Positions 6,817 through 49,301 of a stretch of 64,000 bases of DNA are shown one piece after another. Every line of letters starts with the position of its first letter. Within the stretch, counting starts at the first letter, position 1. Where the stretch lies: contig CAVUVQ010000050.1 of NCBI GenBank assembly GCA_963744875.1, positions 77,330 to 141,329 on the forward strand, given 5' to 3'. The translations under genes were made by a program, and so were the position numbers. This DNA is from an uncultured Chloroflexia bacterium. Lineage in GTDB: Bacteria; Chloroflexota; Ktedonobacteria; Ktedonobacterales; Ktedonobacteraceae. Under the pieces are notes generated by a model. That model made no database searches. It was not told the origin of the DNA and saw only the letters and a list, made by a program, of their open reading frames with translations.

Positions 6817-6835
6817 TGAGGAAGGAGCATCTACT

Positions 6836-7609
6836 ATGGGTAAAATGGGATTTTTTACCGACACGACGCTCTGCATTGGCTGCAAGGCCTGTGAGGTTGC
6901 GTGCAAACAATGGAATCAGTTACCGGCTGATGGCTATAAACTCACGAGTCATAGCTATGACAACACAACGCACCTTTCCTCTACAACCTGGCGGCACGTG
7001 GCCTTCGTGGAGCACAAACGCCCTTCGGAGGGAACAGGTAAAACCGTCAACTGGCTGATGCTGAGCGATGTGTGCAAACACTGCACCAATGCTGGCTGCC
7101 TTCAGTCATGTCCAACAGGAGCGCTTATTCGCAACGAGTTCGGCGATGTCTATGTGCAGCCGGATATCTGCAACGGTTGTGGCTACTGTGTCCCCTCATG
7201 CCCCTTCGGCGTGATAGATCGCAACGAAGATACCGGGATCGCTGCCAAGTGTACACTCTGCTATGATCGGCAAAAGGACGGCATGGAACCCGCCTGTGCC
7301 AAATCCTGTCCCACCGACTCGATTGTCTTTGGCGACCTGGATGAACTGAAAGCAAAGGCGAAGCAACGCGTCGGGACCTTGCACGAACGTGGCGAAACGG
7401 GTGCCTATCTCTATGGCGTCGATGAAGATACTACAGTGGGCGATCTGAACGCATTCTTCCTGCTCACGGATCGACCTTCCGTCTATAATCTTCCTGAGAA
7501 GCCTCATCTGCCGGAGGAGAATATCGTTCCTGGCTTTGTAGCCAGTCTGGTTGCCGCCTCGTTTTTGACAATCGCAACGGCCTTCTCGCTATGGAGCAAA
7601 AATAAATAA
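6836..7609 (+). CDS. fdnH: Formate dehydrogenase beta subunit, 4x[4Fe-4S] ferredoxin-type (FdnH-like) with C-terminal TM helix
   Basis: GAGGAAGGAG sits 7 nt upstream of ATG 6836. Cys clusters are CIGCKACEVAC, CKHCTNAGCLQSCP, CNGCGYCVPSCP and CTLCYDR...EPACAKSCP. The C-terminal hydrophobic segment is FVASLVAASFLTIATAFSLW. Confidence 0.9.
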   Translation: MGKMGFFTDTTLCIGCKACEVACKQWNQLPADGYKLTSHSYDNTTHLSSTTWRHVAFVEHKRPSEGTGKTVNWLMLSDVCKHCTNAGCLQSCPTGALIRNEFGDVYVQPDICNGCGYCVPSCPFGVIDRNEDTGIAAKCTLCYDRQKDGMEPACAKSCPTDSIVFGDLDELKAKAKQRVGTLHERGETGAYLYGVDEDTTVGDLNAFFLLTDRPSVYNLPEKPHLPEENIVPGFVASLVAASFLTIATAFSLWSKNK

Positions 7610-7620
7610 GGAGTGTGCTC

Positions 7621-8694
7621 ATGAGTCAAACAGAGCAAAGCGCACCGGTCAGATTAGGAGACACGTCTACCGTCGTCAACCCCGAATTGGGAGGGGCGAC
7701 GGCAGGACGCGCAGAAACATGGCTCGGCAAACCCAGTAATTACTATGGAATACCACTTATCCATAAGGCCGGATGGAGGTGGCAGATCATCCTCTACTTC
7801 TTTCTAGGCGGTATCGCTGGTGGATCGTATCTTGTAGCGACACTGGCAGACCTGCTCAATATAGACAAAAAGGAAGAGTTGGTGCGTTCAGGACGCTACC
7901 TTTCGTTTGCCTGCATTCTGATTAGCCCCGTCCTCCTGATTCTAGACCTGGGACGGCCTGAGCGTTTTCTGCATATGTTGCGCATCTTCAAACTGCGTTC
8001 CGTCATGTCGCTCGGCACCTGGGGTCTCAGCACATTTGGGATGTTCTGTGGACTGACCACAGCGCATCAGGCGGCAAAAGATGGCCTTCTAGACTGGTTT
8101 CCGCTGCTGGCACGACTTCTCAAAGCGATACCCATCAAAGCGGTAGAAGCAGTGGGAAGTCTATTTGGCCTGTTTGTGGCCTCATACACTGGCGTATTAC
8201 TCTCCTCTACAGCGGTCCCACTATGGGGACGTGCAAAGCACATTCTAGGACCACTTTTCCTCACGTCGGGCTTATCGACCGGTATGGCAAGCCTCTCGGT
8301 GCTACTTTCCCTGGGGCGTTCTAATCAGGAAACGCTAGAGCGGCTGGAACAGGCTGAAATTATCGCTATGACGACCGAACTGGGGCTGATCTCTGCGCTT
8401 CCACCCACACTCGGACCTTTGGGAAAGCCATTATTTCGGGGCAAGGTCGGTACATTCTTTAACATCGGCACGATTGGTGCCGGGCTGCTCGTACCTCTGC
8501 TAACACGACTTGGCTGGAAGTTCACGAAAAAGCCCACGCCTCGCTCCTTAAATCTTGGTCTCTCACTACTCGTCCTGGTAGGAGGCATGATTCTGCGCTA
8601 TGCATGGGTCGTCGCTGGTCGTGCATCTGCCGATGATCCTGAGGCGGTTCATTACTATAATGCGAAGGAGGAAGAGGAACGCAAGAGACGCTAA
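7621..8694 (+). CDS. NrfD/PsrC-family polytopic membrane (quinone-interacting) subunit of the formate dehydrogenase complex
   Basis: AAGGAG sits 7 nt upstream of ATG 7621 (the ORF track opens at GTG 7615). It has about 8 predicted TM segments, an NrfD-like start (WRWQIILYFFLGGIAGGSYL) and operon position directly after the beta subunit. Confidence 0.75.
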   Translation: MSQTEQSAPVRLGDTSTVVNPELGGATAGRAETWLGKPSNYYGIPLIHKAGWRWQIILYFFLGGIAGGSYLVATLADLLNIDKKEELVRSGRYLSFACILISPVLLILDLGRPERFLHMLRIFKLRSVMSLGTWGLSTFGMFCGLTTAHQAAKDGLLDWFPLLARLLKAIPIKAVEAVGSLFGLFVASYTGVLLSSTAVPLWGRAKHILGPLFLTSGLSTGMASLSVLLSLGRSNQETLERLEQAEIIAMTTELGLISALPPTLGPLGKPLFRGKVGTFFNIGTIGAGLLVPLLTRLGWKFTKKPTPRSLNLGLSLLVLVGGMILRYAWVVAGRASADDPEAVHYYNAKEEEERKRR

Positions 8695-34956: not shown

Positions 34957-35412
34957 TTACTCTGCTACCGTGGATGTCTGCAATTTCGCCTTTAAACAGT
35001 CAAAAAACTGTCCGGTTAACTTCTCGGCGGTCCCATTCATAAGACGCGCTCCTACGCTGGCAATAGTTCCACTCACTACGACGTGGGCACTCCAATCCAT
35101 CTGTGTCTTTTCGGCATCGATTGCGGTAAGATGCATATTGCCCGCCAATTCAACTGCACTACCCGGTGCTTTGCCACGCCCTTTGACGATCATCACATCC
35201 GGTTCCTGCATCTCACGCGTCACGTCCAGCGTAAACTTTGCCTTGACCGGTCCAACACCCACGGCAATAACCGCCTTCCAGTGCTCCTCACCCAATACCT
35301 CCAGGCTCTGAAAACCGGGTGCACATTCTGCTACCTTGTTGACATCATATAAATAGGCCCATACGTCCTTTTGTGATGCTTCCATCGTCTGAGTCCCTGA
35401 AAATTCCATCAT
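34957..35412 (-). CDS. SRPBCC/CoxG family protein (second copy, convergent)
   Basis: 151 aa. VWAYLYDVNKVAECAPGFQSLE..GE..W......GVGPVKAKF ... VSGTIASVGARL...TAEKL..QFF.CL fits the CoxG pattern. Confidence 0.75.
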   Translation of the reverse strand: MMEFSGTQTMEASQKDVWAYLYDVNKVAECAPGFQSLEVLGEEHWKAVIAVGVGPVKAKFTLDVTREMQEPDVMIVKGRGKAPGSAVELAGNMHLTAIDAEKTQMDWSAHVVVSGTIASVGARLMNGTAEKLTGQFFDCLKAKLQTSTVAE

Positions 35413-35604
35413 ATTTCCCCTTCTTTAGCCCCGAATGTGACCTGATAGTATCAGAGCAAAAATCCACGGCGCTGTGTGGTTGTTTGCATCATATCACAAT
35501 TTGTGTTGCCTGCTTTTTCCAGTATAAACAAGACTCCTGCTAAGCTCCAAAGCGGGTAAAATGAGGACATAAGTCATCCAGACGAGAGGTTTTTTAGAAG
35601 ACCA

Positions 35605-36435
35605 TTATACGTCCTTGCTCATCTCAGCAAAGACCTGTTCGATGGCCCTGGGCAAGCGTTCTTCGGTACCACGAGGAGCGACCTCTTGCATCTGTTGAGC
35701 AACTTTTGTGATTGTCGTCTCACGGTCCCAACCACTCGCGATGGCTTCACCGACCTGTGCTCTCAACGTAATAAACCAATGACGCAGATCAGCAAGCGCG
35801 GCAGGCGTCTGGATCGGACCATGGCCGGGGATAGCATACGCCGCCTCCAATTGCTCTAATTGTTCCAGGGCATGAACCCAATGCTCTGTATTTCCCCCCG
35901 GCGGTGTCGCTGGCACAATTGCGTTGAAGAGAAGATCGCCCGTGAACAGCACACGTGATTGCGGCAACCACGCTACACTGTCGCTCGGACTATGGGCGAT
36001 ACCCAGATACAGAAGCTGCACTTCGATGTCACCGATGAATAGGGTCATCTTGTCTTGAAATGTAACGGTAGGAGGCGTGATTATTACATCACTGACGAAG
36101 GCACCCATGCGTGGATTCTGCTTCCAATTGGCAAGCGTCTGCTCACCATTGGCAACAAGATCATTGCGCACTCCCTCATGTGCGATAATCGGGCAATCGG
36201 CAAAAACCTGGTTCCCATAAACATGATCACCATGCGGATGCGTATTAAAAAGATAGAGCGCTCCCTCTTTACGATATTCCTGCGTGGCAGCACGCAAAGG
36301 AGTGGCCTCGACGGCGGCAATACCAGAATCCACGACGAGCACGTTCCCACCCTCGCTGATGATGCCACGATTGCAGACACCACCCAGCGCAGCATTGACT
36401 CCCGGTACTATTTCTTGTATGCTAAGATCAGACAT
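35605..36435 (-). CDS. MBL-fold metallo-hydrolase
   Basis: HPHGDHVYGN (HxHxDH motif), a later HSPSD, and GHG near the C-terminal third. 276 aa. Confidence 0.85.
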   Translation of the reverse strand: MSDLSIQEIVPGVNAALGGVCNRGIISEGGNVLVVDSGIAAVEATPLRAATQEYRKEGALYLFNTHPHGDHVYGNQVFADCPIIAHEGVRNDLVANGEQTLANWKQNPRMGAFVSDVIITPPTVTFQDKMTLFIGDIEVQLLYLGIAHSPSDSVAWLPQSRVLFTGDLLFNAIVPATPPGGNTEHWVHALEQLEQLEAAYAIPGHGPIQTPAALADLRHWFITLRAQVGEAIASGWDRETTITKVAQQMQEVAPRGTEERLPRAIEQVFAEMSKDV

Positions 36436-36765
36436 AGTTTTTCCTTCTTTTCAATTTTTTCTCAAACATTAGTCTCTTTATTTCATACCACATATTTTCG
36501 TTTACGTCTATGTTAAACTTAGTTCACACCTCAATCCATCGTAGATGGACACGTTGGTAGTTTTCTGGACCCCGGACAAATCAGTTAAAATTCATACGTA
36601 AAAATCTATTAGAAAGTTTGCAACATGTGCTGAGAGGCTGATGAAAAAGAGAAACATTGTATTAGCACACGTGCTGATGAGGAGGGTGAACATGAGACGT
36701 TGAAAGCGGATGCGATAGAGACTTATCCCATTTATCCTACTGATGATGAAAAAATATGATGTCTG

Positions 36766-36805
36766 GTGGGAAACCCTTGTGAAGAGTCCAGCAGGGGCTT
36801 CCCAC
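36766..36805 (-). terminator. Hairpin downstream of the double-glycine precursor gene
   Basis: GTGGGAAACCC (36766-36776) pairs with GGGGCTTCCCAC (36794-36805). On the minus strand a T-rich tract (tcatatttttt) follows about 10 nt later. Confidence 0.4.
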
Positions 36806-36811
36806 TAGACA

Positions 36812-37204
36812 TTATGGAAAGTCATTCTTGAAATTATTTATATCAAGATGACTTATGATATCTCGTGAGAAAAGGTATGGTAAGCATATTCTCCTACCAG
36901 TTGCATCCTGGTCTACCCTCGAAGGATGGGCCACCCTCGAAAGACGGTCCACCGAAACAGGATGGGTCACCCTCGAAAGATGGTTCACCAAACAAGATGG
37001 TCCACCCTCGAAAGACGGTCCACCGAAACAGGATGGGCCACCATAGCCAAAGAAGGGGTATCCACCGGTATCCCGGTCATTGTGACGCCAGCGATGATGA
37101 CCCCAATCATTGTCATCATGCTCACCTCTCCACCCACCAACGACGTTTTTCAGATCACTATCATTCAGTTCGAAGGCTATGACCTGCTCTTCATTTAAAT
37201 TCAT
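36812..37204 (-). CDS. Double-glycine-leader precursor peptide (bacteriocin/RiPP/pheromone-like) with Gly-Pro-Ser-Cys/Phe hexapeptide repeat core; 3' part probably frameshifted
   Basis: GAAAGGAAAC precedes ATG 37204. The leader MNLNEEQVIAFELNDSDLKNVVGG fits the double-glycine consensus (L-12, D-8, L-7, V-4, G-2, G-1). The core is WRGEHDDNDWGHHRWRHNDRDTGGYPFFGYGGPSCFGGPSFEGGPSC... As given, the ORF runs to 36812. Restoring one missing nt near 36989/36990 keeps the repeat register and ends the ORF at TAG 36894-36896. Confidence 0.65.
   Translation of the reverse strand: MNLNEEQVIAFELNDSDLKNVVGGWRGEHDDNDWGHHRWRHNDRDTGGYPFFGYGGPSCFGGPSFEGGPSCLVNHLSRVTHPVSVDRLSRVAHPSRVDQDATGRRICLPYLFSRDIISHLDINNFKNDFP
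36910..37034. repeat. Seven tandem 18-nt units (one unit only 17 nt) inside the precursor peptide gene
   Basis: Units start at 36910, 36928, 36946, 36964, 36982 (17 nt: GGTTCACC-AAACAAGAT versus GGTCCACCGAAACAGGAT), 36999 and 37017. On the minus strand they encode alternating G-x-P-S-C-F and G-x-P-S-F-E. Confidence 0.9.
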
Positions 37205-37533
37205 GTCAACAGTTTCCTTTCTTCTTACAAGAGAGAACAGCAATGAGTATCTCTTGTATCATTGATCAGGTGCGGAAAGCGTTTACATAAATATATCATA
37301 CATTTTTCTCTTTTACCATCTTATCGTATCCACGAAGTCTATATTAATATATCCTCTGTATACGTCTTTGAGTGCACCTATATTTATTATACTCGCAGGT
37401 GTATAAATAGGAAACAAAGTATTTTTTAAGGGGAGGTAGAATGCCCCAAAAGAGAGGTTGATTTGCGTTTCTTTCAACTATCCATTATAGTAAATCAATA
37501 GTATTGCAACAAAAAGGATATTTTTAAAAGCGT

Positions 37534-39921
37534 ATGGATAACGATAAACAACAGCAACCACCACAATCTCCCCAATGGGTATATAATCAAGATCAACCAC
37601 AGGCACCGCAAGCGGTGCCATTTAATGCTTATAATAACTATCCTCCACCAGAGAATAATCAACAATTCCCATCAGCGCCGTTACCTTATGACTATGATCC
37701 GAACCTGACGATGGATATGGGCAACTCCCTGAGCTATGGGCAGACCATGGACTTCCATGCCAGTAGTATGCCTCAGCCCACCCATTCCATACCTCGCATA
37801 CGTGAGAGACGCTTTAAGGAACTGCGTGAGAAACGGACGCGCAATAAACCAGTTCGCGGCTACCCGGATGTTGAAGCTCTTCAGCAACAACGTAAAGCTT
37901 CAGGCTTGCTGGCAAATGATAATACGCTCATTCCCGGTAAAAACATCATCGGCTCTTTATTTGGAAAAGGCAAGGCAAATAATCGTGGAACCAGACCAGG
38001 AACGCCAGAGAACTGGAGTGGCTCGGGAGTACATGGGATGCCAGGAGACTGGAGTGGCTCGGGAGTGCATGGAACACCTGCGGATTGGAGCAACTCGGGA
38101 GTGTATGGGATGCCAGGAGACTGGAGCGGTTCAGGGGTATATGGAGCATCAGAGACGGCAGTGGCAGAACCACATCCGCCCACACAAGGACAGGCGCATG
38201 GAACATTGGTGGCGGCGGCCACAGGGGCGCAAGATACAGGGATGATCCAACGCGTCAAGGTTGCACGCGCGGCATTCCTGATTACCAGGCGCATTTATGT
38301 TCAGCAGCGTTCTTGGACTGGTGCGCACATTCCTTTTTCCTTATGTCTTTGGGGTTAGTGGTATTTCTGACGCGTATGTACAAGCATACATTATTCCAAA
38401 TTTGCTGTATACAGTTATTGCAGGAGGTGCGCTTAGCTCGGCGTTTATTCCAGTCTTTACGCGCTATGCAGAGGGTTTGAAAGACGAGAATACTGCGTGG
38501 CATATTGCGAGTAGCGCACTGAATATTTCTGTGGTTATGATGTTGGCTTTTCTATCATTGCGATGATTCTTGCACCGATAATCGTGCCAATTTATGCTCC
38601 GGTGAGTGATGTTTTTACACCCGCTGACCAGAATTGGCATGACTCTGACACGTATCATACTGGTTCAGGCAATTGTTCTTGGTTCAGGTGTTATAGTTAG
38701 TTCTGTCCTCAATGCCAAACAGCATTTCACTCGTACCTCAATCGGTGCCGTCCTCTACAATGTGGGTCAGATTATTGGCTTTCTTCCTGGCGTCTTCCTC
38801 TCATCTCATTCACGAAGTAGCAATCCCAGCGATTTCGCCATCTATTCAGCTACGTGGGGTATTGTGCTGGCTGCTATCCTCCAGATTAGCGTACAAATCC
38901 CTGGCCTGTTCAAAGTGAAGATGCACTATACATTCTCTTTCGATTGGCGACATCCAGGAGTTAGACAGATCGGGCGGCAAATGGTGCCACGCGCTATTAA
39001 CGCTGCCATGCTCTCGTTCAGTACCGCATTGTGATCGCTTTCTCCTCTCTTTTCTAGTTGCAGTGGCAGGTGCTCAGGCGGTCGCTGGGCCTGTCAACAG
39101 AATATTTACAGGCTTTTTCTATCCTTATATTGCCCGTCTCGATCTTTGGCTCTTCTGTCTCGACAGCCGCTTTCCCAACTCTGGCAAGCTATGTAGCGCG
39201 TGAACGCTTCGACCGCGTACGTAGTATCATTATGGAAACATTACGCAGCATCCTTTTCCTCTCCATTCCCTCCTGCGTTGGCCTCATTATTCTGGCATTA
39301 CCAATCATCCAGGCGCTCCTGGAGCATGGTCGTTTTACACTAGGAAACGCTCAGCTCACAGCAGTTCCCCTGATTTTTTTTGCAGTGGGCCTACCCGGTC
39401 TGGCTGCTGTCGAGATCCTTACCCGCGCCTTCTATGCCTTGCGCGATAGTAAAACTCCTGTCGTTATCAGCATCATCCAATTTATCCTGAAGATCGCACT
39501 CAGTATCGTTTTGATCAATCTCTCAGTCTTCGGTCTGCAATGGGGTGTTGCAGCTCTGGCCTTTTCAACGTCGGTCGCCAGTTTTCTTGAGGCGGTCGTG
39601 CTGTTCATTTTGCTGTATCGGCGTATTGGTGGGTTCGATCTACGCGCCTTTGTCAGTTTTCTTGGACGTGCTCTGGTTGCTTCGCTTGGAATGGGCGTCG
39701 TGCTCTTTATTGTACGTAACATACTCGATCGCATGATTAATACAACGACCAGCCATACGCTCTCCGTGAGTGGGATTTTCCTGGCCCTCATCAAGCTACT
39801 GATCGAGCTGGGTATTGGCTCTCTGGTCTTTCTGATCATTGCCCGCCGTCTCAATATCGAAGAAATGGAGTCCGGCCCGGTACGCAAGATCCTCAATCGG
39901 TTACGCATCTCGTGGCTTTGA
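37534..39921 (+). pseudogene. murJ: Lipid II flippase MurJ (MviN family) with a roughly 250-aa low-complexity N-terminal extension; frame broken about 5 times
   Basis: Pieces in three frames read colinearly as MurJ: FMFSSVLGLVRTFLFPYVFGVSGISDAYVQAYIIPNLLYTVIAGGALSSAFIPVF; GFSIIAMILAPIIVPIYAP; LTRIILVQAIVLGSGVIVSSVLNAKQHF; VPRAINAAMLSFSTAL/DRFLLSFLVA; YLQAFSILILPVSIFGSSVSTAAFPTLA; LEHGRF; PGLAAVEILTRAFYALRDSKTPV. Frame changes lie near 38282-38300, 38540-38548, 38625-38640, 39020-39035 and 39090-39105. Confidence 0.75.
38008..38151 (+). repeat. Four tandem 36-nt (12-aa) repeats in the MurJ N-terminal extension
   Basis: ENWSGSGVHGMP / GDWSGSGVHGTP / ADWSNSGVYGMP / GDWSGSGVYGAS. Units start at 38008, 38044, 38080 and 38116. 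Confidence 0.9.
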
Positions 39922-39927
39922 TATGCC

Positions 39928-40001
39928 GCCCGATTGATCGCGCCCGCGTGTGGCATGATGAATGGTTCCACATACGCGGGCGCGATCAATCAGGCCCCTA
40001 C
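39928..40001. repeat. REP-like palindrome (GATTGATCGCGCCC type), left arm truncated
   Basis: GCCCGATTGATCGCGCCCGCGTGTGG (39928-39953) pairs with CCACATACGCGGGCGCGATCAATCAGGCCCCTAC (39968-40001). The terminal CTAC supplies the TAG stop (39998-40000) of the minus-strand kinase gene. The element starts 7 nt after the murJ stop. Confidence 0.85.
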
Positions 40002-42214
40002 ATTCCGGCGGTCATGGGCACCTGTGCCCCCACATTCTCCGCGTCCAGATCTGGTTGTTCAGCATTATTGATAACAGGCACCAGCGGCAGGTAGAGAGTA
40101 AATGCACTCCCCTGGCCTGGATTACTGACAAGCTTTAAAGTGCCTCCTAACAGGAAGCTTAACTGGTGCACAATCGAGAGGCCCAGCCCGGTGCCACCAT
40201 ATTTACGAGTTATACTACTATCGCCCTGATAGAACGCATCAAAAATGTGTTCCTGAACTTCTGGCGCAATTCCAATGCCAGTATCTTTCACCGTCAGGGC
40301 AATGCACTTCTCTTCATTATCTGGGAGGAACGCATGCGTCACTTCCACACAAACCTCCCCTTGCTCTGTGAACTTGATGGCATTGGAGAGTAAGTTGAGC
40401 AAAATCTGGTGGAGCTTGTCTGGATCGCTCTCGATCTCGTCGATACCCTGGGCAAAGTGAGTCAGCAGAGATACCTTTTTTTCGCTTGCCAGAGGACGAA
40501 TTTCTTCAATAATATCCGAGATGAGCGTAGACAACTGCACCGTACAGATATTCACGTTCATACGTCCAGCTTCAATCTTGAGTAGATCCAGCGTATCATT
40601 GATCAGGCTCAGCAGATGATTGCCGTTTTTGATGATGCGCCCGATGTTGTCCCGGTTGCGTTGCTCGTTGTGCGGCCTACATTCCAGATCGCGCAAGATA
40701 ATCTGGCTGAACCCTAGAATGGCTGTTAAGGGAGTGCGCAGTTCGTGCGTCATCGTTGACAGAAATTGGGTACGGGCTTTATTAGCTTCTTCAAGCGTTC
40801 CATTGAGCATACGGAGTTCGTTCCGCTGAATGCGCAAAGAAACGTTCATCTGCTCCTGCTCACGATTTTTAGCAATCAGTTCCTCGGCCTGAGCTTGAAT
40901 ATGTTCATAAGCTTTCGTATGACTGATGACAGTGGAGAGATTGCTGGAGACGACCGTGAGAATGTTGCGTGCCTGTTCAGTCATTGAATAAAGCGAACCA
41001 AACACCATGACGCCCAACAGGTCTTTCCCCTGAATCAATGGCAGATGGTACATACTGCCAGGTAAAACTTTCCCCAGCACTGTTTTAGCGATGAAATTGC
41101 CCGCTTCACTCGGTACAGGAGCGCGTATATAGAAAGGTGAACGCTTCAATGCCGTGCTACCAATCATACCTTCACCCATCGCAAACTCCTGCGTCAGTTC
41201 CGCAAAGTCAAAGCCCTGCGCACCCACCAGTACCAGGCGCTCTTTACGCACATCATACAGGTACAGAGCCGCAAGTTGCAGATGAAGCAAGGTCAACGCC
41301 TTATCCAGAAAAGTGGTGACCAATGTATCAAAATCAAGGGTGCTGGTGAGCAATGTGTTGAGCTGGAGTACGCTCTCCATAACATCACGATCTTTTTGCG
41401 CCGCACTTTGCTGCTGTAAAGCCGTTGCCATCGCATTAAAGGTTTTACCCAATTGGGAGAGTTCCAGGCTCTCTAACTCAGGAACACGGATAGCAAAATT
41501 GCCTTCCCCTAAACTATTGGAAGTATCCTCCAGAATGGCTAGCTGACGATAAAGCGCATCGGCAAAACGGATAAACATGCGCCAGAGAAGTAGAATAACA
41601 AGGAGTGAGAGGAGGAGTGAGATACTGGTAGCAACTAAGTTGAGCGCATCCATCCAGCTTTGTTGCTGCTCCACATCAAGACGAGATGCATCTTGTAAAT
41701 GGGCTGCCACCAGACGATAGTGATCAAAAAGCAATTTTCCTTGCTGGATAGTGCTTTCGGTCAGCACAAGCGTTCTCCGCCCATTGCGCATATTCGCTAG
41801 CTGAACCTGCGCATAATTTTCGTACCACGTATCAGCCTGAACCTCTACCTCCGGCAAAGCTGCCCGTGTATTACTAAAGTTATGCGTGTCAAGCAGTTCA
41901 TGCACTTGACCCAACATGGTTAGATACGTCTCATGACCACGATAAAATGGTTCGAGGAAAATCGTATTAGCGGTCGCGATATAACCACGTATCCCTGTTT
42001 CTTGATCGATCATCGCGCTCTGGAGGCCATTAATATCGTCACGTAATGTCAGGCTGTCGATGCTTGCGTTATGTTGTAGAGCAGAGGTAAGAATACTCGC
42101 GCTAAGATGGATTATCAGAACAACGAGCAAAAGCCCCATGTTGAAGAAGAGACGCGTGCGTATCTGCGTCACTAAGCTGCCGCGCTTTTCATGTGTAGAA
42201 AAGAGATGTTCCAT
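39998..42214 (-). CDS. Sensor histidine kinase with CHASE3-HAMP-GAF-HisKA-HATPase_c architecture
   Basis: GAGGGAGA precedes ATG 42214. One TM helix is followed by the CHASE3-like ETGIRGYIATANTIFLEPFYRG, a second TM helix, HAMP (ALYRQLAILEDTSNSLGEGNFAIRVPE), GAF, the H-box MTHELRTPLTAILG, the N-box LLSNAIKFT, and the G-boxes DTGIGI and GGTGLGLSIV. Confidence 0.88.
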   Translation of the reverse strand: MEHLFSTHEKRGSLVTQIRTRLFFNMGLLLVVLIIHLSASILTSALQHNASIDSLTLRDDINGLQSAMIDQETGIRGYIATANTIFLEPFYRGHETYLTMLGQVHELLDTHNFSNTRAALPEVEVQADTWYENYAQVQLANMRNGRRTLVLTESTIQQGKLLFDHYRLVAAHLQDASRLDVEQQQSWMDALNLVATSISLLLSLLVILLLWRMFIRFADALYRQLAILEDTSNSLGEGNFAIRVPELESLELSQLGKTFNAMATALQQQSAAQKDRDVMESVLQLNTLLTSTLDFDTLVTTFLDKALTLLHLQLAALYLYDVRKERLVLVGAQGFDFAELTQEFAMGEGMIGSTALKRSPFYIRAPVPSEAGNFIAKTVLGKVLPGSMYHLPLIQGKDLLGVMVFGSLYSMTEQARNILTVVSSNLSTVISHTKAYEHIQAQAEELIAKNREQEQMNVSLRIQRNELRMLNGTLEEANKARTQFLSTMTHELRTPLTAILGFSQIILRDLECRPHNEQRNRDNIGRIIKNGNHLLSLINDTLDLLKIEAGRMNVNICTVQLSTLISDIIEEIRPLASEKKVSLLTHFAQGIDEIESDPDKLHQILLNLLSNAIKFTEQGEVCVEVTHAFLPDNEEKCIALTVKDTGIGIAPEVQEHIFDAFYQGDSSITRKYGGTGLGLSIVHQLSFLLGGTLKLVSNPGQGSAFTLYLPLVPVINNAEQPDLDAENVGAQVPMTAGM

Positions 42215-44243: not shown

Positions 44244-47200
44244 CTACATTTGGGATTCCAACGGCAACGCAAAGAAAAAGGTGCTCCCCTGACCAGGTTT
44301 ACTTTCCAGCCACATGCGACCCCCGTGCTGCTTCACGATGTTATGAGAGATATAAAGGCCCAGACCCAGACCATCAACTGACCCTTGCATATCGGCATGC
44401 ACACGGTAAAAACGTTCAAAGAGGTGCACCTGGTCTTCCGCCTCAATACCATCCCCCTCATCACACACTGCTACAACAACTTCGTTGCTGGCAGGTCGTC
44501 GTTCTACCGTTACCTCAATGGGGCTTCCAGCAGGGCTATACTTGTCAGCATTGCTCAGCAGGTTATTCAAAACCTGTTCTATGCGATCCTTATCCGCAGT
44601 TATCAGAATGGCTTCTTCACCAATTTGCACAGAGACAGGATGCTTTTGCAATGCTTGCTGATCAACAACGCTACGAACCAACTCCACTAAATCAACATTT
44701 TCCTGCTTATGCAACTCGAAGATTTCCCCCTGGAGACGAGTGACATCCAGCATGTCAGTGACAAGACTATTCATATTGCTAAGTTGGTGGAGAATACGCT
44801 CGATCTGGGTAAGGCTCTGGTCGAGATGCTGCTCACGCGTCTGGGCCTGACCAAGAGAAGTGGTATGCCTTATTAAAGTTCGCTGCAAAAGCTGGGTATT
44901 TGCCTGAATAGTAGTTAGAGGAGAACGTAACTCATGCGCTACTAATGAAAGAAAATCATCTCTCATCAGTTCAATCTGTTCGAGGTTTTTGCGTGCACTT
45001 ACCTGCTCCGTGATCTCCACAGCAGAAACGAGCATGTAGCGCACAGCATCCAATTCTGTATCGATAATGGCGGTGAGGTTATAATCCCAGACCGTTGCAG
45101 ATCCATCTCCCGCAAACGAAAGGGTAAGCTCCGGAATACGGAACGTAGCACGATCCTCGACCACTCTTTTCCAGGTCAGTATAGGATCTTCGTCGGGCAG
45201 CAGTAATGGCATCTCCTGCCAGGTATGACCTGGGACGCTATCTGGAGCTGCTTGATGCGCCTGGGCAACCAGTTCAAGATAACGCGGACTTCCCATCAGT
45301 AATGCCTCAGTCCGCCCATCATAAAGAGCCAATGCCACGGTTCGCGTATTAGCAAAGACCGTTTTGAGCTGGGCGAGTTCCTCCTGGAGTTCCTGCGCAT
45401 GCTGCTCCGTCTCATCTGACGCGTAGATGATCACGCCATCCACGCGGCCTGAAGCGTTATGAGAAGGGACAAGCGTATACGAAAAATAGCCTTCCTTTTG
45501 CTCATCTGATACCTTACTTTGTGTCCCAGGTATAATAGTACGAATACGCGATAACGTTTTTGGCAATTCTTTCACGTAAACTTCACGCGCAAGGTGCATT
45601 AAAGCAAAACCTGCCTTCGGTTCCCAGAACAGATTGATCACGTCCTCTAACGCGTGCCCCTGGACACTCGCTTCTTCCAATAAACGCGCATAGCGCGGAT
45701 TGTATGCTTCGACCACCAGAGCAGGACCACGCAAAACAAGAATATAAAATGGTGCGAACTCCACCATCTCGGAGAGGCGTACATGCTCATTCTCCAGGGA
45801 GGTCGTCAGTTCTTGCAGTTCACTGGTGCGAGCACGTAGTTCATCGTTGGTCGTCTCTAACTCCTCATTGGTGGCCTGCAACTCCTCGTTATTTGTTTCC
45901 AGCTCCTCGTTGGTCGCTTGCAACTCCTCGTTGGTCGTTTCAAACTCCTCAATACTTGCCTGTAACTCCTCGTGTGTTAACATGAGTTCCTCGTTGGCAA
46001 CTTGCAACTCTTCGTTGGCATCCATAAGCTCTTTATTCATATCGCTCAGGCGTTTGTTAGCTGTACTCAGCTCTTGCATCAACTGCAACTGTTCACTGTG
46101 GACACTCTCCAATTGGCGACGGATATGGACCTGATCAGTTACATCGCTGATACTGATCGCTGCAAGATCCGGTAAACTGGCATCCAGTTGCATTACGGCG
46201 ATAGAGAGACTCACAAAGCGTCCATTGCCACCCGCGGATACTTCAAGTTCTACTTCTGGCAAAGTAATAGAATTGCGCTCACGGAAAACCGTATCGATAG
46301 CCGCACGCGTCCCATGATAAGGAATACCATGCACCGTGTGCAAAAAATCCTGATCTATAGCAACATCACGTAGACCAAGCAAACGACGAGCAGAATTGTT
46401 GGCAGTCAAGATATGGTAGGTACGATCGATAATTATGACACCAAGAGGAAGAAAACGCAGCAGAAGCTCGTTGAAACGACGCAGTTGCCCCAACTCCAAC
46501 GAGAGAGATAACGGCTCCTGCTGATCCGCATGTGTTCTTCCTGATGATCGCAGTGAGCGATCCATAACGTTCCTCTCCTGCGAAGGTGCTTTTTTCTCCG
46601 AAAGACTACGTTGATTGGCTGAAGGAAGCGCATTACCAATACAGCGATATATTTTCCAGAGCTTATTCTCCAGCATGTAAAATAACTGCGCAGGGCGTAC
46701 CGTTTCCGCTTTCCCTAGAAAGAGAAATCCATTGGGATTGAGAGAAAAGGCAAACTGATTGAGCACATAATCCTGTAGTTCGGCTGTAAAATAGATCAAA
46801 ACATTGCGGCAGAGCACCAGGTCTATATGCGGAAAAGGGGCACTATGGCTAAGATCTTGCCGTCCAAATATGACCATTTGCCGCAGCGTTTTTGAAATGC
46901 GATAGCCATGATCGACCCGTTCAAAGAACCGCTCCTGATAATCACGTGGCACTCCTTTGAGCAGATTCTCGGAATAGATCCCACGCCGGGCGAAGGTAAT
47001 TGCAGCTTCATCTAGATCTGTTGCAAAGATCTTGATACTCCATTCGGGCAGTTCCACACTCAGAAGATCTGTGAGCAGCATTGCAAGTGAATAAGGTTCT
47101 TCCCCTGTTGCACAGCCTGCCGTCCAGAAGCGCAAGACGTGATCACGCTGGCGGCCATCCGCAATTAAAGCAGGCAAAATATCACTTCTAAGATAGGCAA

Positions 47201-48059
47201 AGGCATCAGCATCACGAAAAAACTGCGTGACATTGATGAGAAAAGCCTTGACTAGCTCGCCTACCTCCTCAGGATGAAGCCTCAGATAATTTGCGTATTC
47301 CTGGATAGTCTTATTATGCGTCACAGTCATGCGTCGACCGACACGACGCAGAATAGTCGACGTTTTGTAGGGATGAAAATCAATACTCGCCTGTTGACTC
47401 ACCAACTCAAGAATATCGTGCAAAACATCCTCGGTTCGCTCCTCTGTCAGCGGAATATTCACGCCATTTAGCAATTCATACAGCAACGGGCCAATACGTT
47501 CAATATTCACTTCAAAATCGATGATGGTGGGAGGAAGTGCTAGCGGCATAGAGGGATAACGCGCTGTCTGAGGATCCTGCACAATAACGGTTCCACCTGC
47601 ATTTTTTACGTCGACCGCGCCCGCAGCCCCATCCGACCCGGAACCAGTCAAAATAACCGCAATCAGGTGCTCTCCATAGGATTCAGCAGCAGAGGAGAGC
47701 AGGGTATCGACAGAGGGACGGGGCCGCTTCTTGCGATCCTCCATCAAATAGACATGGTGATCCCTTATAGAAACATGACGATTTGCAGGTACGACATAAA
47801 TTCGACCCGGATACAATTTTGTATTCTCTTGCACAATCTCAACGACCAGGTTGGTACGTTTTCGCAATATAATATCAAGTGAACTGGGACGATTGGGGTC
47901 AAGATGTTGTGCCAGTACCAGGGGCGCTGGAAAGTCTTCAGGCAAGGTACTCACCAGAATGGAGAGCGCTTCAATACCTCCTGCTGAAGAGCCAACTACG
48001 ATCAGATCACTCGATTGAACAGTATCTTGCTCAATAGTATCTTGCTCAATAGTATCCAC
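44244..48059 (-). CDS. CheB methylesterase-CheR methyltransferase fusion joined to PAS, heptad coiled coil, PAS, HisKA and HATPase_c (1271 aa)
   Basis: CheB domain: VVGSSAGGIEAL...LTGSGSDGA.G...K.AGG.VIVQDP. CheR domain: FFRD...F..L...ILP......R.WTAGCATGEEPYSLAML...IFATD.D..A...AR.G.Y ... CRNVLIYF. Eleven heptads of xxEELxx follow (residues about 680-756). The kinase core has VAHELRSPLTT, LLSNADKYSP, DEGDGI and GLGLGLYI. Confidence 0.9.
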   Translation of the reverse strand: MDTIEQDTIEQDTVQSSDLIVVGSSAGGIEALSILVSTLPEDFPAPLVLAQHLDPNRPSSLDIILRKRTNLVVEIVQENTKLYPGRIYVVPANRHVSIRDHHVYLMEDRKKRPRPSVDTLLSSAAESYGEHLIAVILTGSGSDGAAGAVDVKNAGGTVIVQDPQTARYPSMPLALPPTIIDFEVNIERIGPLLYELLNGVNIPLTEERTEDVLHDILELVSQQASIDFHPYKTSTILRRVGRRMTVTHNKTIQEYANYLRLHPEEVGELVKAFLINVTQFFRDADAFAYLRSDILPALIADGRQRDHVLRFWTAGCATGEEPYSLAMLLTDLLSVELPEWSIKIFATDLDEAAITFARRGIYSENLLKGVPRDYQERFFERVDHGYRISKTLRQMVIFGRQDLSHSAPFPHIDLVLCRNVLIYFTAELQDYVLNQFAFSLNPNGFLFLGKAETVRPAQLFYMLENKLWKIYRCIGNALPSANQRSLSEKKAPSQERNVMDRSLRSSGRTHADQQEPLSLSLELGQLRRFNELLLRFLPLGVIIIDRTYHILTANNSARRLLGLRDVAIDQDFLHTVHGIPYHGTRAAIDTVFRERNSITLPEVELEVSAGGNGRFVSLSIAVMQLDASLPDLAAISISDVTDQVHIRRQLESVHSEQLQLMQELSTANKRLSDMNKELMDANEELQVANEELMLTHEELQASIEEFETTNEELQATNEELETNNEELQATNEELETTNDELRARTSELQELTTSLENEHVRLSEMVEFAPFYILVLRGPALVVEAYNPRYARLLEEASVQGHALEDVINLFWEPKAGFALMHLAREVYVKELPKTLSRIRTIIPGTQSKVSDEQKEGYFSYTLVPSHNASGRVDGVIIYASDETEQHAQELQEELAQLKTVFANTRTVALALYDGRTEALLMGSPRYLELVAQAHQAAPDSVPGHTWQEMPLLLPDEDPILTWKRVVEDRATFRIPELTLSFAGDGSATVWDYNLTAIIDTELDAVRYMLVSAVEITEQVSARKNLEQIELMRDDFLSLVAHELRSPLTTIQANTQLLQRTLIRHTTSLGQAQTREQHLDQSLTQIERILHQLSNMNSLVTDMLDVTRLQGEIFELHKQENVDLVELVRSVVDQQALQKHPVSVQIGEEAILITADKDRIEQVLNNLLSNADKYSPAGSPIEVTVERRPASNEVVVAVCDEGDGIEAEDQVHLFERFYRVHADMQGSVDGLGLGLYISHNIVKQHGGRMWLESKPGQGSTFFFALPLESQM

Positions 48060-48248: not shown

Positions 48249-49301
48249 CTATGGCTCTAACGAAGCTGAATCAACATCTTTCAAAGCAGGAATTTCTTTT
48301 CGTGTGAGCACCTGGCGCAATAAAATTGCACGTTGTTCTGCCTCCTGTACCCTGACATTCAGACGCTCCGCAAGCCATCCATGCCCGTTCTGTAAGGCCT
48401 GCTTTGCCATACGACGCGAAAGGCTGGCGTTCTCGTCCAGCGTTTTTAACGCAACCCATAACGCCTGCTCAATCTTCTCGGTTTGCTCCGCAAGGGCGCT
48501 ATCAGGTGAGAATGCATGCCCCGTACGGCAACGAAAGCGCGTCAGCTCATCATCATGCAATTCCCACAATACACCACCACATTCTGGACAAGAATACGCC
48601 GATGGACTCCCTACCTGTTCATTCTCACTCAATGGATTTGTCTCCATTTCAGCAATTCTCACTTCTCGCTTCATATCCTCTGAAGCTGAGGGAATATTTT
48701 CTTGCACAATCTCCTCACGAGCCAATTGCGCCAGGGTCAACCCTATCTGGGCAAGTGGTAAACAATAATCAACATTTACATGAGCCAGTGCACTTTTCGG
48801 CATATCGGGATAGAGGGCATTTGTTGGGTCTTGCACGACCGCTACTCCACCACGCTGTTTAATAGCAAGCAACCCGGCAGTGCCATCGTCCAACGAGCCT
48901 GTCAACACTACACCAATAACCTGTGAACCATAAGCAACGGCTGCAGAACGGAAGAGAGGATCAATGGCTGGCCGATGACGGTTCTCCCTGGGGCCTCGCA
49001 CAACTCGCATAAACCCACTCTCGATGAGCAAATGATGATCTGGTGACGCAACATAAATACGTCCACGCTCGATCCGCTGATAATCTACAGGTTGCTCTAC
49101 TTTTATAAAAGTAGAGCGATTGAGAATTTCAGCCAATAGGCTGGGACTCTGCGCTGGAATATGTAATACAATGAAGACACTGGCTGAAAAGTTCACCGGG
49201 AATTCACGTACTACTTGTATGAGCGCTTCCACACCACCCGCAGAAGCCCCTACAACGATGATTTCATGTCCTGACACAAAAATCTCCCCTCCTGACATCA
49301 T
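48249..49301 (-). CDS. CheB-type protein-glutamate methylesterase domain protein with C-terminal zinc-ribbon/helical extension (no receiver domain)
   Basis: IIVVGASAGGVEAL ... HIPA.SPS.LAEIL ... VVLTGSLDDGTAGLLAIKQRGGVAVVQDP, then CPECGGVLWE...FRCRTGHAFS. It lies directly upstream of, and on the same strand as, the CheB-CheR kinase. Confidence 0.8.
   Translation of the reverse strand: MMSGGEIFVSGHEIIVVGASAGGVEALIQVVREFPVNFSASVFIVLHIPAQSPSLLAEILNRSTFIKVEQPVDYQRIERGRIYVASPDHHLLIESGFMRVVRGPRENRHRPAIDPLFRSAAVAYGSQVIGVVLTGSLDDGTAGLLAIKQRGGVAVVQDPTNALYPDMPKSALAHVNVDYCLPLAQIGLTLAQLAREEIVQENIPSASEDMKREVRIAEMETNPLSENEQVGSPSAYSCPECGGVLWELHDDELTRFRCRTGHAFSPDSALAEQTEKIEQALWVALKTLDENASLSRRMAKQALQNGHGWLAERLNVRVQEAEQRAILLRQVLTRKEIPALKDVDSASLEP

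What the first reader, a model, noticed from the sequence alone, without database searches (positions are those of the whole stretch)
36766..37204. Orphan double-glycine-leader precursor peptide with a Gly-Pro-Ser-Cys/Phe hexapeptide-repeat core
Seen in sequence:
- The minus strand has an RBS, ATG 37204 and a 24-aa leader MNLNEEQVIAFELNDSDLKNVVGG.
- The leader fits the double-glycine consensus position by position (L-12, acidic -8, L-7, V-4, G-2, G-1).
- The predicted core starts with a His/Trp/Asp/Arg-rich stretch (WRGEHDDNDWGHHRWRHNDRDTGGYPFFGY).
- It then becomes a strict hexapeptide repeat, GGPSCF/GGPSFE.

Established knowledge: this leader type is used by class II bacteriocins, ComC-type pheromones and many RiPPs that are cleaved and exported by C39-peptidase ABC transporters.

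What is unusual:
- I do not recognise this core as any described bacteriocin or RiPP class.
- Gly-rich repeats with Ser-Cys pairs recall azole or thioether substrates. However, no cyclodehydratase, Lan enzyme, radical SAM enzyme or C39 transporter lies within 10 kb on either side. The neighbours are an MBL hydrolase and murJ.

Inference: it could be a new secreted repeat peptide whose processing genes are encoded elsewhere.
Basis: partly seen in the sequence, partly recalled or inferred. Interest (0 to 1): 0.78.

Follow-up and report, generated by a model that had tools for sequence, protein, structure and literature searches.

The report
Orphan double-glycine-leader repeat peptide gene
This is a real, selected small gene found only in Ktedonobacteraceae soil bacteria; it encodes a peptide with a textbook export-and-cleavage leader and an odd acidic repeat-rich body, but the copy here has a one-base frameshift (probably an assembly error) and no exporter or modifying enzyme is nearby.

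Summary
The start codon, the 24-aa leader and the His/Trp/Asp-rich stretch are exactly as described. The 36-nt (12-aa) tandem repeat is real. As assembled, though, the ORF loses frame after about 2.8 hexapeptide units through a 1-nt deletion near 36990. Three homologs restore the frame: they share start and stop codons, all their length differences are multiples of 3, and dN/dS is 0.07-0.30.

The family has only four distinct members among about 15 billion proteins. All placeable members are Ktedonobacteraceae, and one MAG has two paralogs. Every member keeps L-12, D-8, L-7, V-4, G-2 and G-1, the published C39/PCAT recognition pattern. The match to TIGR01847 is borderline.

The gene is a self-contained cassette (TATAAT box, conserved ~180-nt 5' region, CDS, covarying 3' hairpin) found in four unrelated neighbourhoods. 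In syntenic relatives an MFS transporter gene occupies its place. No PCAT, Lan, YcaO or radical-SAM gene lies in the 64-kb window or in what is visible of the other loci.

The window's repeat cysteines are Tyr in the homologs, so the thioether/azole idea is not supported. The best reading is a new family of GG-leader secreted peptides served by an exporter encoded elsewhere. Export and function are inferred, not shown.

The parts
37386..37391 (-). Invariant TATAAT (-10-like) box, within the motif GAGTATAAT
   Evidence: Identical in the window, L001, L004 and the divergent paralog L008 (alignment A3). Coordinates. Promoter function is inferred. The consensus scan did not call a promoter here because there is no good -35.
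37205..37385 (-). Conserved 5' region or 5' UTR, about 180 nt between the TATAAT box and the ATG
   Evidence: Mean column identity is 81% across the four loci. The Jukes-Cantor distance is 0.055-0.43, against dS of 0.24-1.17 for the same pairs, so it evolves more slowly than synonymous sites. There is no Rfam match.
37227..37257 (-). Hairpin ACAAGAGAT...TCTCTCTTGT just 5' of the ribosome-binding site
   Evidence: Predicted by RNAalifold. Most pairs are invariant and one is compensatory (A-U to G-C, two sequences each). The evidence is weak because only four sequences are available.
37215..37219 (-). Shine-Dalgarno-like AAGGA
   Evidence: Read from the sequence. It is invariant in A3.
36894..37204 (-). 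Peptide gene in its corrected frame: 103 aa plus TAG, with one base missing in the assembly
   Evidence: Start and stop are shared with the homologs. All indels are multiples of 3 except 71 (= 72-1) nt in the window (A1). dN/dS is 0.07-0.30.
37133..37204 (-). 24-aa double-glycine-type leader, MNLNEEQVIAFELNDSDLKNVVGG
   Evidence: L-12, D-8, L-7, V-4, G-2 and G-1 are invariant in all four members. TIGR01847 matches residues 12-24 and ends at GG, scoring 12.3-14.2 bits in the full peptides and 16.9 bits for the leader alone, against a 15.7-bit cut-off. The determinants are taken from PMC6363468.
37043..37132 (-). His/Trp/Asp/Arg-rich N-terminal part of the predicted mature peptide, ending GGYPFFGY
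   Evidence: The pattern [ED]HDD..GHH.W.HH...GGY.FF is conserved. P0003 carries an extra 12-aa copy of this part (36-nt in-frame insertion).
36897..37042 (-). Hexapeptide repeats G-G-P-S-[C/F]-[F/E]: 7 units plus the terminal GRPGCNW. Built from a 36-nt tandem repeat
   Evidence: TRF finds period 36, 3.4 copies, 85% matches and 2% indels. The homologs have 3-4 units of GGPS[FY][EY].
36988..36992 (-). Site of the 1-nt deletion (TGT TT^G GTG where TGT TTC GGT is expected) that breaks the frame
36748..36810 (-). Conserved long 3' hairpin (36810-36761) followed by ATCATATTTTTT; probable terminator or stabiliser
   Evidence: The MFE of the 146-nt 3' region is -43 kcal/mol, z = -6.2. All four loci have the same hairpin architecture: 18 pairs, 5 with compensatory double changes, covariation term -2.38.
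36453..37438 (.). Interval that is not homologous to the syntenic relatives. The cassette sits here where L009 and L010 carry an MFS transporter gene
   Evidence: blastn of window 35000-40500 against L009 and L010.

Best explanation
The locus is a stand-alone, monocistronic cassette made of a TATAAT promoter, a constrained 5' UTR of about 175 nt, a 103-codon ORF and a 3' hairpin. It encodes a member of a very small Ktedonobacteraceae-specific family of double-glycine-leader peptides.

Shown here:
- The gene is real and under purifying selection.
- Its start and stop are conserved.
- The leader carries every known C39 recognition determinant.
- The core evolves by in-frame gain and loss of 12-aa and 6-aa repeat units.
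- The cassette moves as a unit between unrelated neighbourhoods.

[quoted passage not shown] V-4, L-7 and L-12 sit in the hydrophobic groove of its C39 domain. The transporter cuts after Gly-Gly and exports a 54-79-residue peptide.

The predicted product is acidic (pI 4.5-5.2) and intrinsically disordered. It has no Lys and almost no aliphatic residues, and it is rich in Gly, Pro, aromatic residues and His. It is probably not enzymatically modified, apart from disulfides between its even number of cysteines.

Its extracellular role is unknown. Competition, signalling or metal binding through the HH/D-rich segment are all possible.

The frameshift in this particular copy is most likely an error of an indel-prone long-read assembly.
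For: - Coding and selection: dN/dS is 0.07-0.30 over all six pairs, with dS 0.24-1.17. All length differences are in frame except the window's 71 nt. The TGG-TAG stop is shared.
- True start: L008 has an in-frame stop 7 codons upstream, and the upstream frames are not conserved.
- Leader determinants: L-12, D-8, L-7, V-4 and GG are invariant. The 2-aa insertion in P0004 lies N-terminal to the motif and preserves its spacing.
- Published criteria: ComA and LahT recognise L-12, E/D-8, L-7, V-4 and GG, with Asp tolerated at -8 (PMC6363468).
- Model match: TIGR01847 aligns so that it ends exactly at the GG.
- Chance: about 0.01 such motifs are expected per window.
- Structure: the only AlphaFold secondary structure is a helix at residues 15-22, which is -10 to -3 (low confidence).
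- Not a Sec or Tat signal: the N-terminus has net charge -4.5.
- Cysteine parity: the Cys count is even in all members, 4, 2, 2 and 2.
- Exporters in the lineage: K. racemifer has two C39-LanT homologs, and one of them (Krac_11909) is not associated with any precursor (PMC3951391).
- Cassette nature: homology to the other loci is confined to the gene and its UTRs. The neighbours differ in each locus. The cassette is absent from the syntenic relatives.
- Assembly error: murJ, 0.3-1.9 kb away, has 5 mixed +1/-1 frame switches but is still 78-85% identical to intact homologs. It is broken at different places in two related assemblies. A molybdopterin oxidoreductase at 3556-6816 also appears split: five consecutive + strand ORFs, of which only the last matched a Pfam molybdopterin domain.
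Against: - No PCAT or other exporter lies next to any of the four distinct loci or anywhere in the 64-kb window. Its presence in this genome could not be checked.
- Most homolog contigs end less than 1 kb upstream of the gene, so their upstream context is unseen.
- TIGR01847 scores fall below the curated cut-off for the full-length peptides.
- The acidic core, with almost no aliphatic residues, is unlike typical cationic, amphiphilic class II bacteriocins.
- No immunity-like gene is conserved downstream.
- The AlphaFold model is uninformative (pLDDT 43).
- There is no expression or peptide evidence.
Confidence: 0.5

Rival explanations
1. RiPP precursor. The GG leader also directs remote tailoring enzymes (for example LanM-type thioether formation or YcaO azole formation on Ser/Cys) before a PCAT cleaves and exports the peptide. 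Prochlorosin precursors scattered away from ProcM work this way.
For: - The window copy has three Ser-Cys pairs in its repeats.
- GG leaders are used by class II lanthipeptides, and K. racemifer has LanM clusters with a C39-LanT (PMC3951391).
- That precursors can be encoded far from their enzymes is established knowledge for prochlorosins (my own knowledge).
Against: - The repeat Cys are not conserved. PSCF in the window corresponds to PSYY in P0002, P0003 and P0004. Only the C-terminal Cys is invariant.
- No Lan, YcaO, radical-SAM or other tailoring gene lies in the window or near any homolog.
- The leader is only 24-26 aa, with no Nif11 or NHLP similarity.
Confidence: 0.1
2. Intracellular small disordered protein, for example a metal-buffering, stress-related or spore-associated structural protein. 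Its N-terminal helix only resembles a GG leader by coincidence and is never cleaved.
For: - There is no exporter in any context.
- The core is acidic and rich in His and Asp, with HH pairs, and its Gly/Tyr/Pro repeats recall structural or metal-binding proteins.
- TIGR01847 scores are below the cut-off in the full-length peptides.
- AlphaFold finds no fold.
Against: - All six recognition positions are invariant across members whose synonymous sites are saturated (dS up to about 1.2).
- The leader is the best-conserved part of the protein, and the boundary with the core is sharp in composition.
- The insertion in P0004 preserves the spacing of the motif.
- The chance expectation for the motif is about 0.01 per window.
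- The even Cys count suggests an oxidising, extracellular destination. This is weak evidence from four sequences.
Confidence: 0.25
3. In this genome the gene is a true pseudogene. The 1-nt deletion is real, and the locus is a decaying remnant of an acquired cassette.
For: - The assembled sequence is frameshifted.
- The cassette is accessory and absent from the syntenic relatives.
- Many long genes in the same window are intact (3.8, 2.9 and 2.3 kb), so errors are not uniform.
Against: - Five further frame switches lie within 2.1 kb, in murJ. MurJ is normally essential (my own knowledge), and the fragments remain 78-85% identical to intact homologs.
- murJ is broken at other positions in two related assemblies with long contigs, and a Mo-oxidoreductase at 3556-6816 also appears fragmented. 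This is the pattern of consensus indel errors.
- Downstream of the deletion the repeat units and the stop are still intact in the shifted frame.
Confidence: 0.2
4. Not a protein-coding gene. The conserved ~620-nt unit is a non-coding RNA and the ORF is incidental.
For: The 5' and 3' flanks are conserved and structured: the 5' UTR evolves more slowly than synonymous sites, and the 3' hairpin covaries.
Against: - dN/dS is 0.07-0.30.
- In-frame indels of 6, 36 and 72 nt, and a conserved ATG, SD and stop.
- No Rfam family matches. The only weak hit, AdoCbl at 22.9 bits against a 50-bit threshold, is the antisense of the 3' hairpin and lacks the B12 box.
Confidence: 0.03

Closest known systems
Double-glycine (GG) leader peptides exported by peptidase-containing ABC transporters (AMS/PCAT): class II bacteriocins and ComC/BlpC-type pheromones (NCBIfam TIGR01847 bacteriocin_sig)
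   Same: The leader is 24-26 aa, acidic, and ends in GG, with L-12, D-8, L-7 and V-4. There is a short predicted helix at about -10 to -3. The predicted mature peptide is under 10 kDa. There is no Sec signal.
   Different: No adjacent PCAT, immunity, accessory or two-component genes. The core is acidic, with almost no aliphatic residues, and repeat-built, rather than cationic and amphiphilic. At 54-79 aa it is much longer than ComC-type pheromones. TIGR01847 scores are just below the cut-off in the full-length peptides.
Class II microcins of Gram-negative bacteria (PMC12219008)
   Same: A GG signal sequence, a small Gly-rich and often anionic core, extreme sequence diversity, and no extensive modification (class IIa).
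   Different: The host is a Ktedonobacteraceae (Chloroflexota), described as Gram-positive in PMC3951391. No PCAT, MFP or immunity gene lies nearby. There is no Ser-rich C-terminal tail for siderophore attachment. The hexapeptide-repeat architecture is not a described microcin feature.
Class II lanthipeptide precursors with GG leaders (e.g. the K. racemifer LanM cluster; prochlorosins)
   Same: The GG cleavage motif. The lineage encodes C39-LanT transporters. Precursors can be remote from their enzymes.
   Different: The Cys and Ser/Thr pattern is not conserved. The leader is short and not Nif11- or NHLP-like. No LanM lies in any context.
Eukaryotic Gly/His-rich antimicrobial or metal-binding peptides (shepherins, histatins). 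Compositional analogy only, from my own knowledge
   Same: Gly-, His- and aromatic-rich, disordered and repeat-based.
   Different: There is no homology. Those peptides are cationic, whereas this family is strongly acidic. The biogenesis is different.

Membership tests
GG-leader / PCAT-substrate peptides | N-terminal leader of about 15-30 aa ending in Gly-Gly (or GA/GS), directly followed by the core | tested here: met
   The leader is 24 aa (26 in P0004) and ends V-[VF]-G-G | W in all four members.
GG-leader / PCAT-substrate peptides | Recognition pattern Leu(-12)-X3-Glu/Asp(-8)-Leu(-7), with a hydrophobic residue at -4 (PMC6363468) | tested here: met
   L-12, D-8, L-7 and V-4 are invariant. 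The criteria were read. Chance expectation is about 0.01 per window.
GG-leader / PCAT-substrate peptides | Match to the curated leader model TIGR01847 above its cut-off (15.7 bits) | tested here: inconclusive
   The full peptides score 12.3-14.2 bits (E 0.05-0.2). The leader alone scores 16.9 bits. The alignment ends at GG.
GG-leader / PCAT-substrate peptides | Leader residues about -4 to -11 able to form a two-turn helix | tested here: inconclusive
   AlphaFold places its only helix at residues 15-22 (-10 to -3), but pLDDT is about 50.
GG-leader / PCAT-substrate peptides | A cognate C39-peptidase ABC transporter, usually adjacent | tested here: not met
   This result concerns adjacency only. 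No ABC ATPase motif occurs in any frame of the 64-kb window. No Peptidase_C39 or ABC domain was found in the annotated ORFs or in the homolog loci. Presence elsewhere in the genome cannot be tested with these tools. The lineage does have such transporters (PMC3951391).
GG-leader / PCAT-substrate peptides | Cleavage after GG and export, shown experimentally | not testable with these tools
   This needs peptidomics or an in vitro C39 assay.
RiPP precursors (lanthipeptide or azole-containing) | Conserved modifiable residues (Cys with Ser/Thr) in the core | tested here: not met
   The repeat Cys of the window are Tyr in the three homologs. Only the C-terminal Cys is invariant.
RiPP precursors (lanthipeptide or azole-containing) | Co-localised or co-occurring tailoring enzyme (LanM/LanBC, YcaO, radical SAM) | tested here: not met
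   None lies in the window or in L001-L008. Genome-wide co-occurrence was not testable.
Class II microcins | GG signal plus neighbouring PCAT and MFP (and immunity) genes in a diderm host | tested here: not met
   No such neighbours are present. The host family is Ktedonobacteraceae, described as Gram-positive in PMC3951391.
AdoCbl riboswitch (RF01482), weak hit at 36729-36888 on the + strand | Score at or above the gathering threshold, with a B12 box and a paired P1 helix | tested here: not met
   22.9 bits against 50. P1 is unpaired and the B12 box is absent. The hit is the antisense of the peptide gene's 3' hairpin.

The most novel reading that the evidence does not exclude
The family could be the first example of a new functional class of PCAT-exported peptides. 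These would be acidic, disordered, repeat-built peptides whose HH/Asp/Trp segment binds metal ions, or which act as a developmental or surface signal in filamentous, sporulating Ktedonobacteria. They would be expressed from a mobile monocistronic cassette with its own conserved regulatory 5' UTR and served in trans by an 'orphan' C39 transporter such as the Krac_11909 type.
Probability: 0.15. Interest if true: 0.6.

Novelty: new member of a known kind. Interest (0 to 1): 0.35.

Why it matters
If the peptide is exported, it gives a candidate substrate for the 'orphan' C39 ABC transporters reported in Ktedonobacteria. This group is little studied and rich in natural products.

It would also add a GG-leader cargo of unusual chemistry. 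The cargo is acidic, has almost no aliphatic residues, is rich in His, Trp and Tyr, and changes length by adding or losing repeat units.

The cassette is compact: promoter, constrained 5' UTR, ORF and covarying 3' hairpin. That makes it easy to test in a heterologous host.

In practical terms, the case shows how an indel-prone assembly mis-annotates a small gene. The deposited 130-aa product, P0001, is a frameshift chimera.

Tried and rejected
- Pfam and NCBIfam scans of the peptides gave no hit except the borderline TIGR01847 match.
- An exhaustive HMMER profile search of 1.84 billion representatives added one true member, P0004. The other three hits are low-complexity GNP/GGP repeat proteins and are not homologs.
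- The genome-contig scan returned one locus, the same MAG. The metagenome-contig scan returned none.
- An exact look-up of P0001 found no gene record, so the window's organism name could not be retrieved that way. The family was inferred from MurJ homologs instead.
- AlphaFold with a 4-sequence alignment gave pLDDT 43 and pTM 0.13. I did not run a fold search, because it would be meaningless at that confidence.
- Rfam at gathering thresholds found nothing. The weak AdoCbl hit was examined and rejected as the antisense of the 3' hairpin.
- I looked for a conserved downstream immunity-like gene. The 33-aa hydrophobic ORF at 36592-36693 was not compared directly with the other loci. The 164-aa ORF downstream in L001-L003 is absent from L004 and L008.
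- I searched the syntenic relatives L009 and L010 for an uncalled copy of the peptide. None is present.
- I could not obtain a Ktedonobacteraceae PCAT sequence, or scan the source genome, to test whether an exporter is present.
- The literature searches did not surface a description of this peptide family.
Full report
**1. What is in the sequence**

On the minus strand an ATG at 37204 is preceded by AAGGA at 37219-37215. It opens MNLNEEQVIAFELNDSDLKNVVGG, followed by WRGEHDDNDWGHHRWRHNDRDTGGYPFFGY and then GGPSCF GGPSFE GGPSC. Tandem Repeats Finder reports a 36-nt unit, 3.4 copies, 85% matches and 2% indels at 36923-37042.

The assembled ORF then leaves the repeat frame. TGT TTG GTG AAC appears where the other copies read TGT TTC GGT GRA. 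The ORF runs on as unrelated sequence to a stop at 36814-36812. This 130-aa product is what public databases hold (P0001). The repeat continues in the neighbouring frame...FGEPSFEGDPSCFGGPSFEGGPSFEGRPGCNW*, to TAG at 36896-36894.

However, the "strict repeat core" exists only after adding one base at 36988-36992. The stated end coordinate, 36766, matches neither stop.

**2. The corrected frame is the real gene**

A search of 5.8 billion proteins with the corrected 103-aa peptide found P0001 and two homologs. P0002 (85 aa) comes from soil metagenome samples. P0003 (91 aa) comes from Ktedonobacteraceae MAGs. An exhaustive profile search of 1.84 billion representatives added one more, P0004 (80 aa), and otherwise only low-complexity look-alikes.

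In the DNA alignment all four genes share the ATG and the TGG-TAG stop. All length differences are multiples of three (6, 36 and 72 nt), except that the window's extra block is 71 nt.

Nei-Gojobori dN/dS on the corrected alignment is 0.07-0.30 for all six pairs, with dS 0.24-1.17.

The start is genuine. L008 has an in-frame stop seven codons upstream with no alternative start between. A 1-nt indel in the upstream region changes the upstream frame between loci.

So the ORF is a selected protein-coding gene. It is neither part of a larger protein nor a non-coding RNA.

**3. The frameshift is probably an assembly artefact**

murJ lies 0.3 kb upstream and is transcribed divergently. Aligned to intact Ktedonobacteraceae MurJ proteins, it switches frame five times, at about 38290, 38546, 38632, 39030 and 39085, with a mix of +1 and -1 shifts. 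Every fragment still shows 78-85% identity to the intact homologs.

In two syntenic relatives with long contigs murJ is also split, but at different places. L009 is ERZ25039475 contig_9760, 1.03 Mb. L010 is GCA_963731415.1, 0.45 Mb.

A molybdopterin oxidoreductase at 3556-6816 also appears fragmented. It is five consecutive + strand ORFs, of which only the last (5710-6816) matched a molybdopterin-binding Pfam domain. BrkB and DUF1464 match only parts of their Pfam profiles.

Other long genes, of 3.8, 2.9 and 2.3 kb, are intact, so the errors are patchy. I put about 0.75-0.8 on an assembly error and about 0.2 on a real, recent pseudogene. Only the reads can decide.

**4. The leader**

All four members have L-12, D-8, L-7, V-4, G-2 and G-1. 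The 2-residue insertion in P0004 lies N-terminal to this block and keeps its spacing.

[quoted passage not shown] Residues -4 to -11 form a two-turn helix, and Asp is tolerated at -8 (PMC6363468).

NCBIfam TIGR01847 (bacteriocin_sig) aligns to residues 12-24 and ends at the GG. The scores are 12.3-14.2 bits for the full peptides and 16.9 bits for the leader alone, against a 15.7-bit cut-off. This is borderline.

The strict motif in a leader-like position is expected about 0.01 times per 64-kb window. The N-terminus has net charge -4.5, so it is not a Sec or Tat signal. AlphaFold gave no confident model (pLDDT 43). Its only helix covers residues 15-22, which is -10 to -3.

**5. The core**

The predicted mature peptides are 54-79 aa and acidic (pI 4.5-5.2, net charge -6 to -9). 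They contain no Lys and almost no aliphatic residues. They consist mostly of Gly, Pro, Ser, Phe, Tyr, Trp, His, Asp, Glu and Arg.

They have three parts:
- An [ED]HDD..GHH.W.HH segment, of which P0003 carries an extra 12-aa copy.
- A conserved GGY.FF segment.
- Three to seven hexapeptide units G-G-P-S-[F/Y/C]-[E/Y/F], ending P-[RG]-C-x-[WC].

The homologs have PSYY at those positions. Only the C-terminal Cys is invariant. The Cys count is even in every member (4, 2, 2, 2), which is weakly suggestive of disulfides.

**6. A self-contained, mobile cassette**

Nucleotide homology between the window and the other loci runs from about 37274 to 36886. Weaker but clear similarity extends back to an invariant GAGTATAAT (TATAAT at 37391-37386) and forward to a long hairpin at 36810-36761.

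The 5' region of about 180 nt diverges less than synonymous sites do. For example, for L001 versus L008 the figures are 0.24 against dS 1.17. It contains a hairpin just before the SD, with one compensatory pair.

The 3' hairpin is present in all four loci, with 18 pairs. Five pairs have compensatory double changes. In the window a T-run follows it.

The flanking genes differ in every case:
- MBL hydrolase and murJ in the window.
- A 164-aa ORF plus a DedA/VTT gene in L001-L003, with IS66 and Tn3 transposases and an integrase within 10 kb of L001.
- DedA/VTT directly in L004.
- MFS plus TetR in L008.

P0003 and P0004 are two paralogs in one MAG, GCA_013695595.1.

In the syntenic relatives L009 and L010, the interval between the MBL gene and murJ holds an MFS transporter instead of the peptide gene. 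No copy of the peptide exists within 10 kb on either side of the murJ fragment that anchors each locus.

**7. No processing genes nearby**

Pfam annotation of 40 ORFs across the window found sensor kinases, CoxG, MBL, MurJ, DHDPS, a CheB/CheR-kinase fusion, gyrase, aminotransferases and others. It found no Peptidase_C39, ABC transporter, LanB/C/M, YcaO or radical-SAM domain. No Walker A motif occurs in any of the six frames.

None of the homolog loci shows such genes either, although most of those contigs end less than 1 kb upstream.

The lineage does encode C39-domain transporters. K. racemifer has two LanT homologs, and one of them (Krac_11909) is not associated with any precursor (PMC3951391). 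Whether the window's genome has one could not be tested here.

**8. Interpretation**

The best-supported model is a new, very narrowly distributed family of GG-leader peptides processed in trans by a PCAT encoded elsewhere (confidence about 0.5). The gene, its selection, the leader pattern and the cassette structure are shown. Cleavage, export, disulfides and any biological activity are inferred.

The rivals are:
- An uncleaved intracellular disordered or metal-binding protein (0.25).
- A remote-enzyme RiPP (0.1). This is weakened by the non-conserved Cys and the absence of enzymes in every context.
- A non-coding element (0.03).

Independently of these, there is about a 0.2 chance that this particular copy is a real pseudogene.

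**9. Novelty and score**

GG-leader peptides are a well-known kind with famously diverse cargo, and orphan precursors are common in genome mining. This is best filed as a new member of a known kind. Its notable features are the acidic repeat-built core, the narrow distribution and the conserved UTRs. The literature searches did not surface any description of it.

Interest is 0.35. It would rise to about 0.6 if the peptide proved to be a metal-binding or developmental signal exported by an orphan PCAT. I put about 0.15 on that.

Noticed in passing
window 37534-39921 (+): murJ is split by five frame switches (about 38290, 38546, 38632, 39030 and 39085, mixed +1 and -1), although every fragment is 78-85% identical to intact homologs. 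It is also split, at other positions, in the related assemblies L009 and L010. This looks like long-read consensus error rather than gene decay.
   Followed up: yes
window 37534-38290 (+): MurJ appears to carry an N-terminal extension of about 250 aa with no family match. It is Q/P-rich and contains tandem 12-aa repeats, WSGSGV[HY]G[MT]P[GA]D. The homologous DNA is present upstream of murJ in L009 and L010.
   Followed up: partly
window 3556-6816 (+): Five consecutive same-strand ORFs (137, 130, 215, 156 and 368 aa) look like one molybdopterin oxidoreductase cut by frameshifts. Only the last has a Pfam hit (Molydop_binding). Intact Fer4_11 and NrfD subunit genes follow at 6803-8694.
   Followed up: no
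window 36729-36888 (+): A weak full-length match to the AdoCbl riboswitch model (22.9 bits against a gathering score of 50, E 0.05-0.09). It is the antisense of the peptide gene's conserved 3' hairpin, has no B12 box and has an unpaired P1. I judged it noise.
   Followed up: yes
window 37205-37385 (-); L001 717-897, L004 57-237, L008 949-1129 (approximate): The 5' region between the invariant TATAAT and the ATG evolves 1.4-5 times more slowly than synonymous sites. The effect is clearest among the L loci and is only 1.4-2 times for pairs that include the window. The region has no Rfam match. A CU-rich tract (TTCTCTCTT) pairs with an upstream AAGAGA arm but could alternatively pair with the purine-rich SD, which suggests a possible translational switch. 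This is untested speculation.
   Followed up: partly
window 36453-37438 versus L010 6333-8337 and L009 about 4604-8351: A variable slot between the MBL hydrolase gene and murJ. The window has the peptide cassette there, L010 has an MFS transporter, and L009 has an MFS transporter plus HTH_5 and short-chain dehydrogenase genes.
   Followed up: yes
window 44244-48059 (-): A single 1271-aa ORF fuses CheB methylesterase, CheR methyltransferase, PAS, HisKA and HATPase domains. A separate CheB gene lies next to it (48249-49301). The relatives show the same genes, split into pieces.
   Followed up: no
L001 6759-11173: The P0003 copy lies within 10 kb of an IS66 transposase, a phage-type integrase and a Tn3-family transposase. 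This fits the peptide cassette residing in mobile or accessory DNA.
   Followed up: no
L009 1-3514: A large ORF combines TIR domains with Type ISP restriction-modification domains (N6_Mtase, Eco57I, Type_ISP_C). It may be a defence fusion and is unrelated to the finding.
   Followed up: no
window 36592-36693 (-): A 33-aa very hydrophobic ORF (MFTLLISTCANTMFLFFISLSAHVANFLIDFYV) lies between the peptide cassette and the MBL gene. It is immunity-protein-like in character. I did not compare it with the other loci, whose downstream gene content differs, so it is probably spurious.
   Followed up: partly
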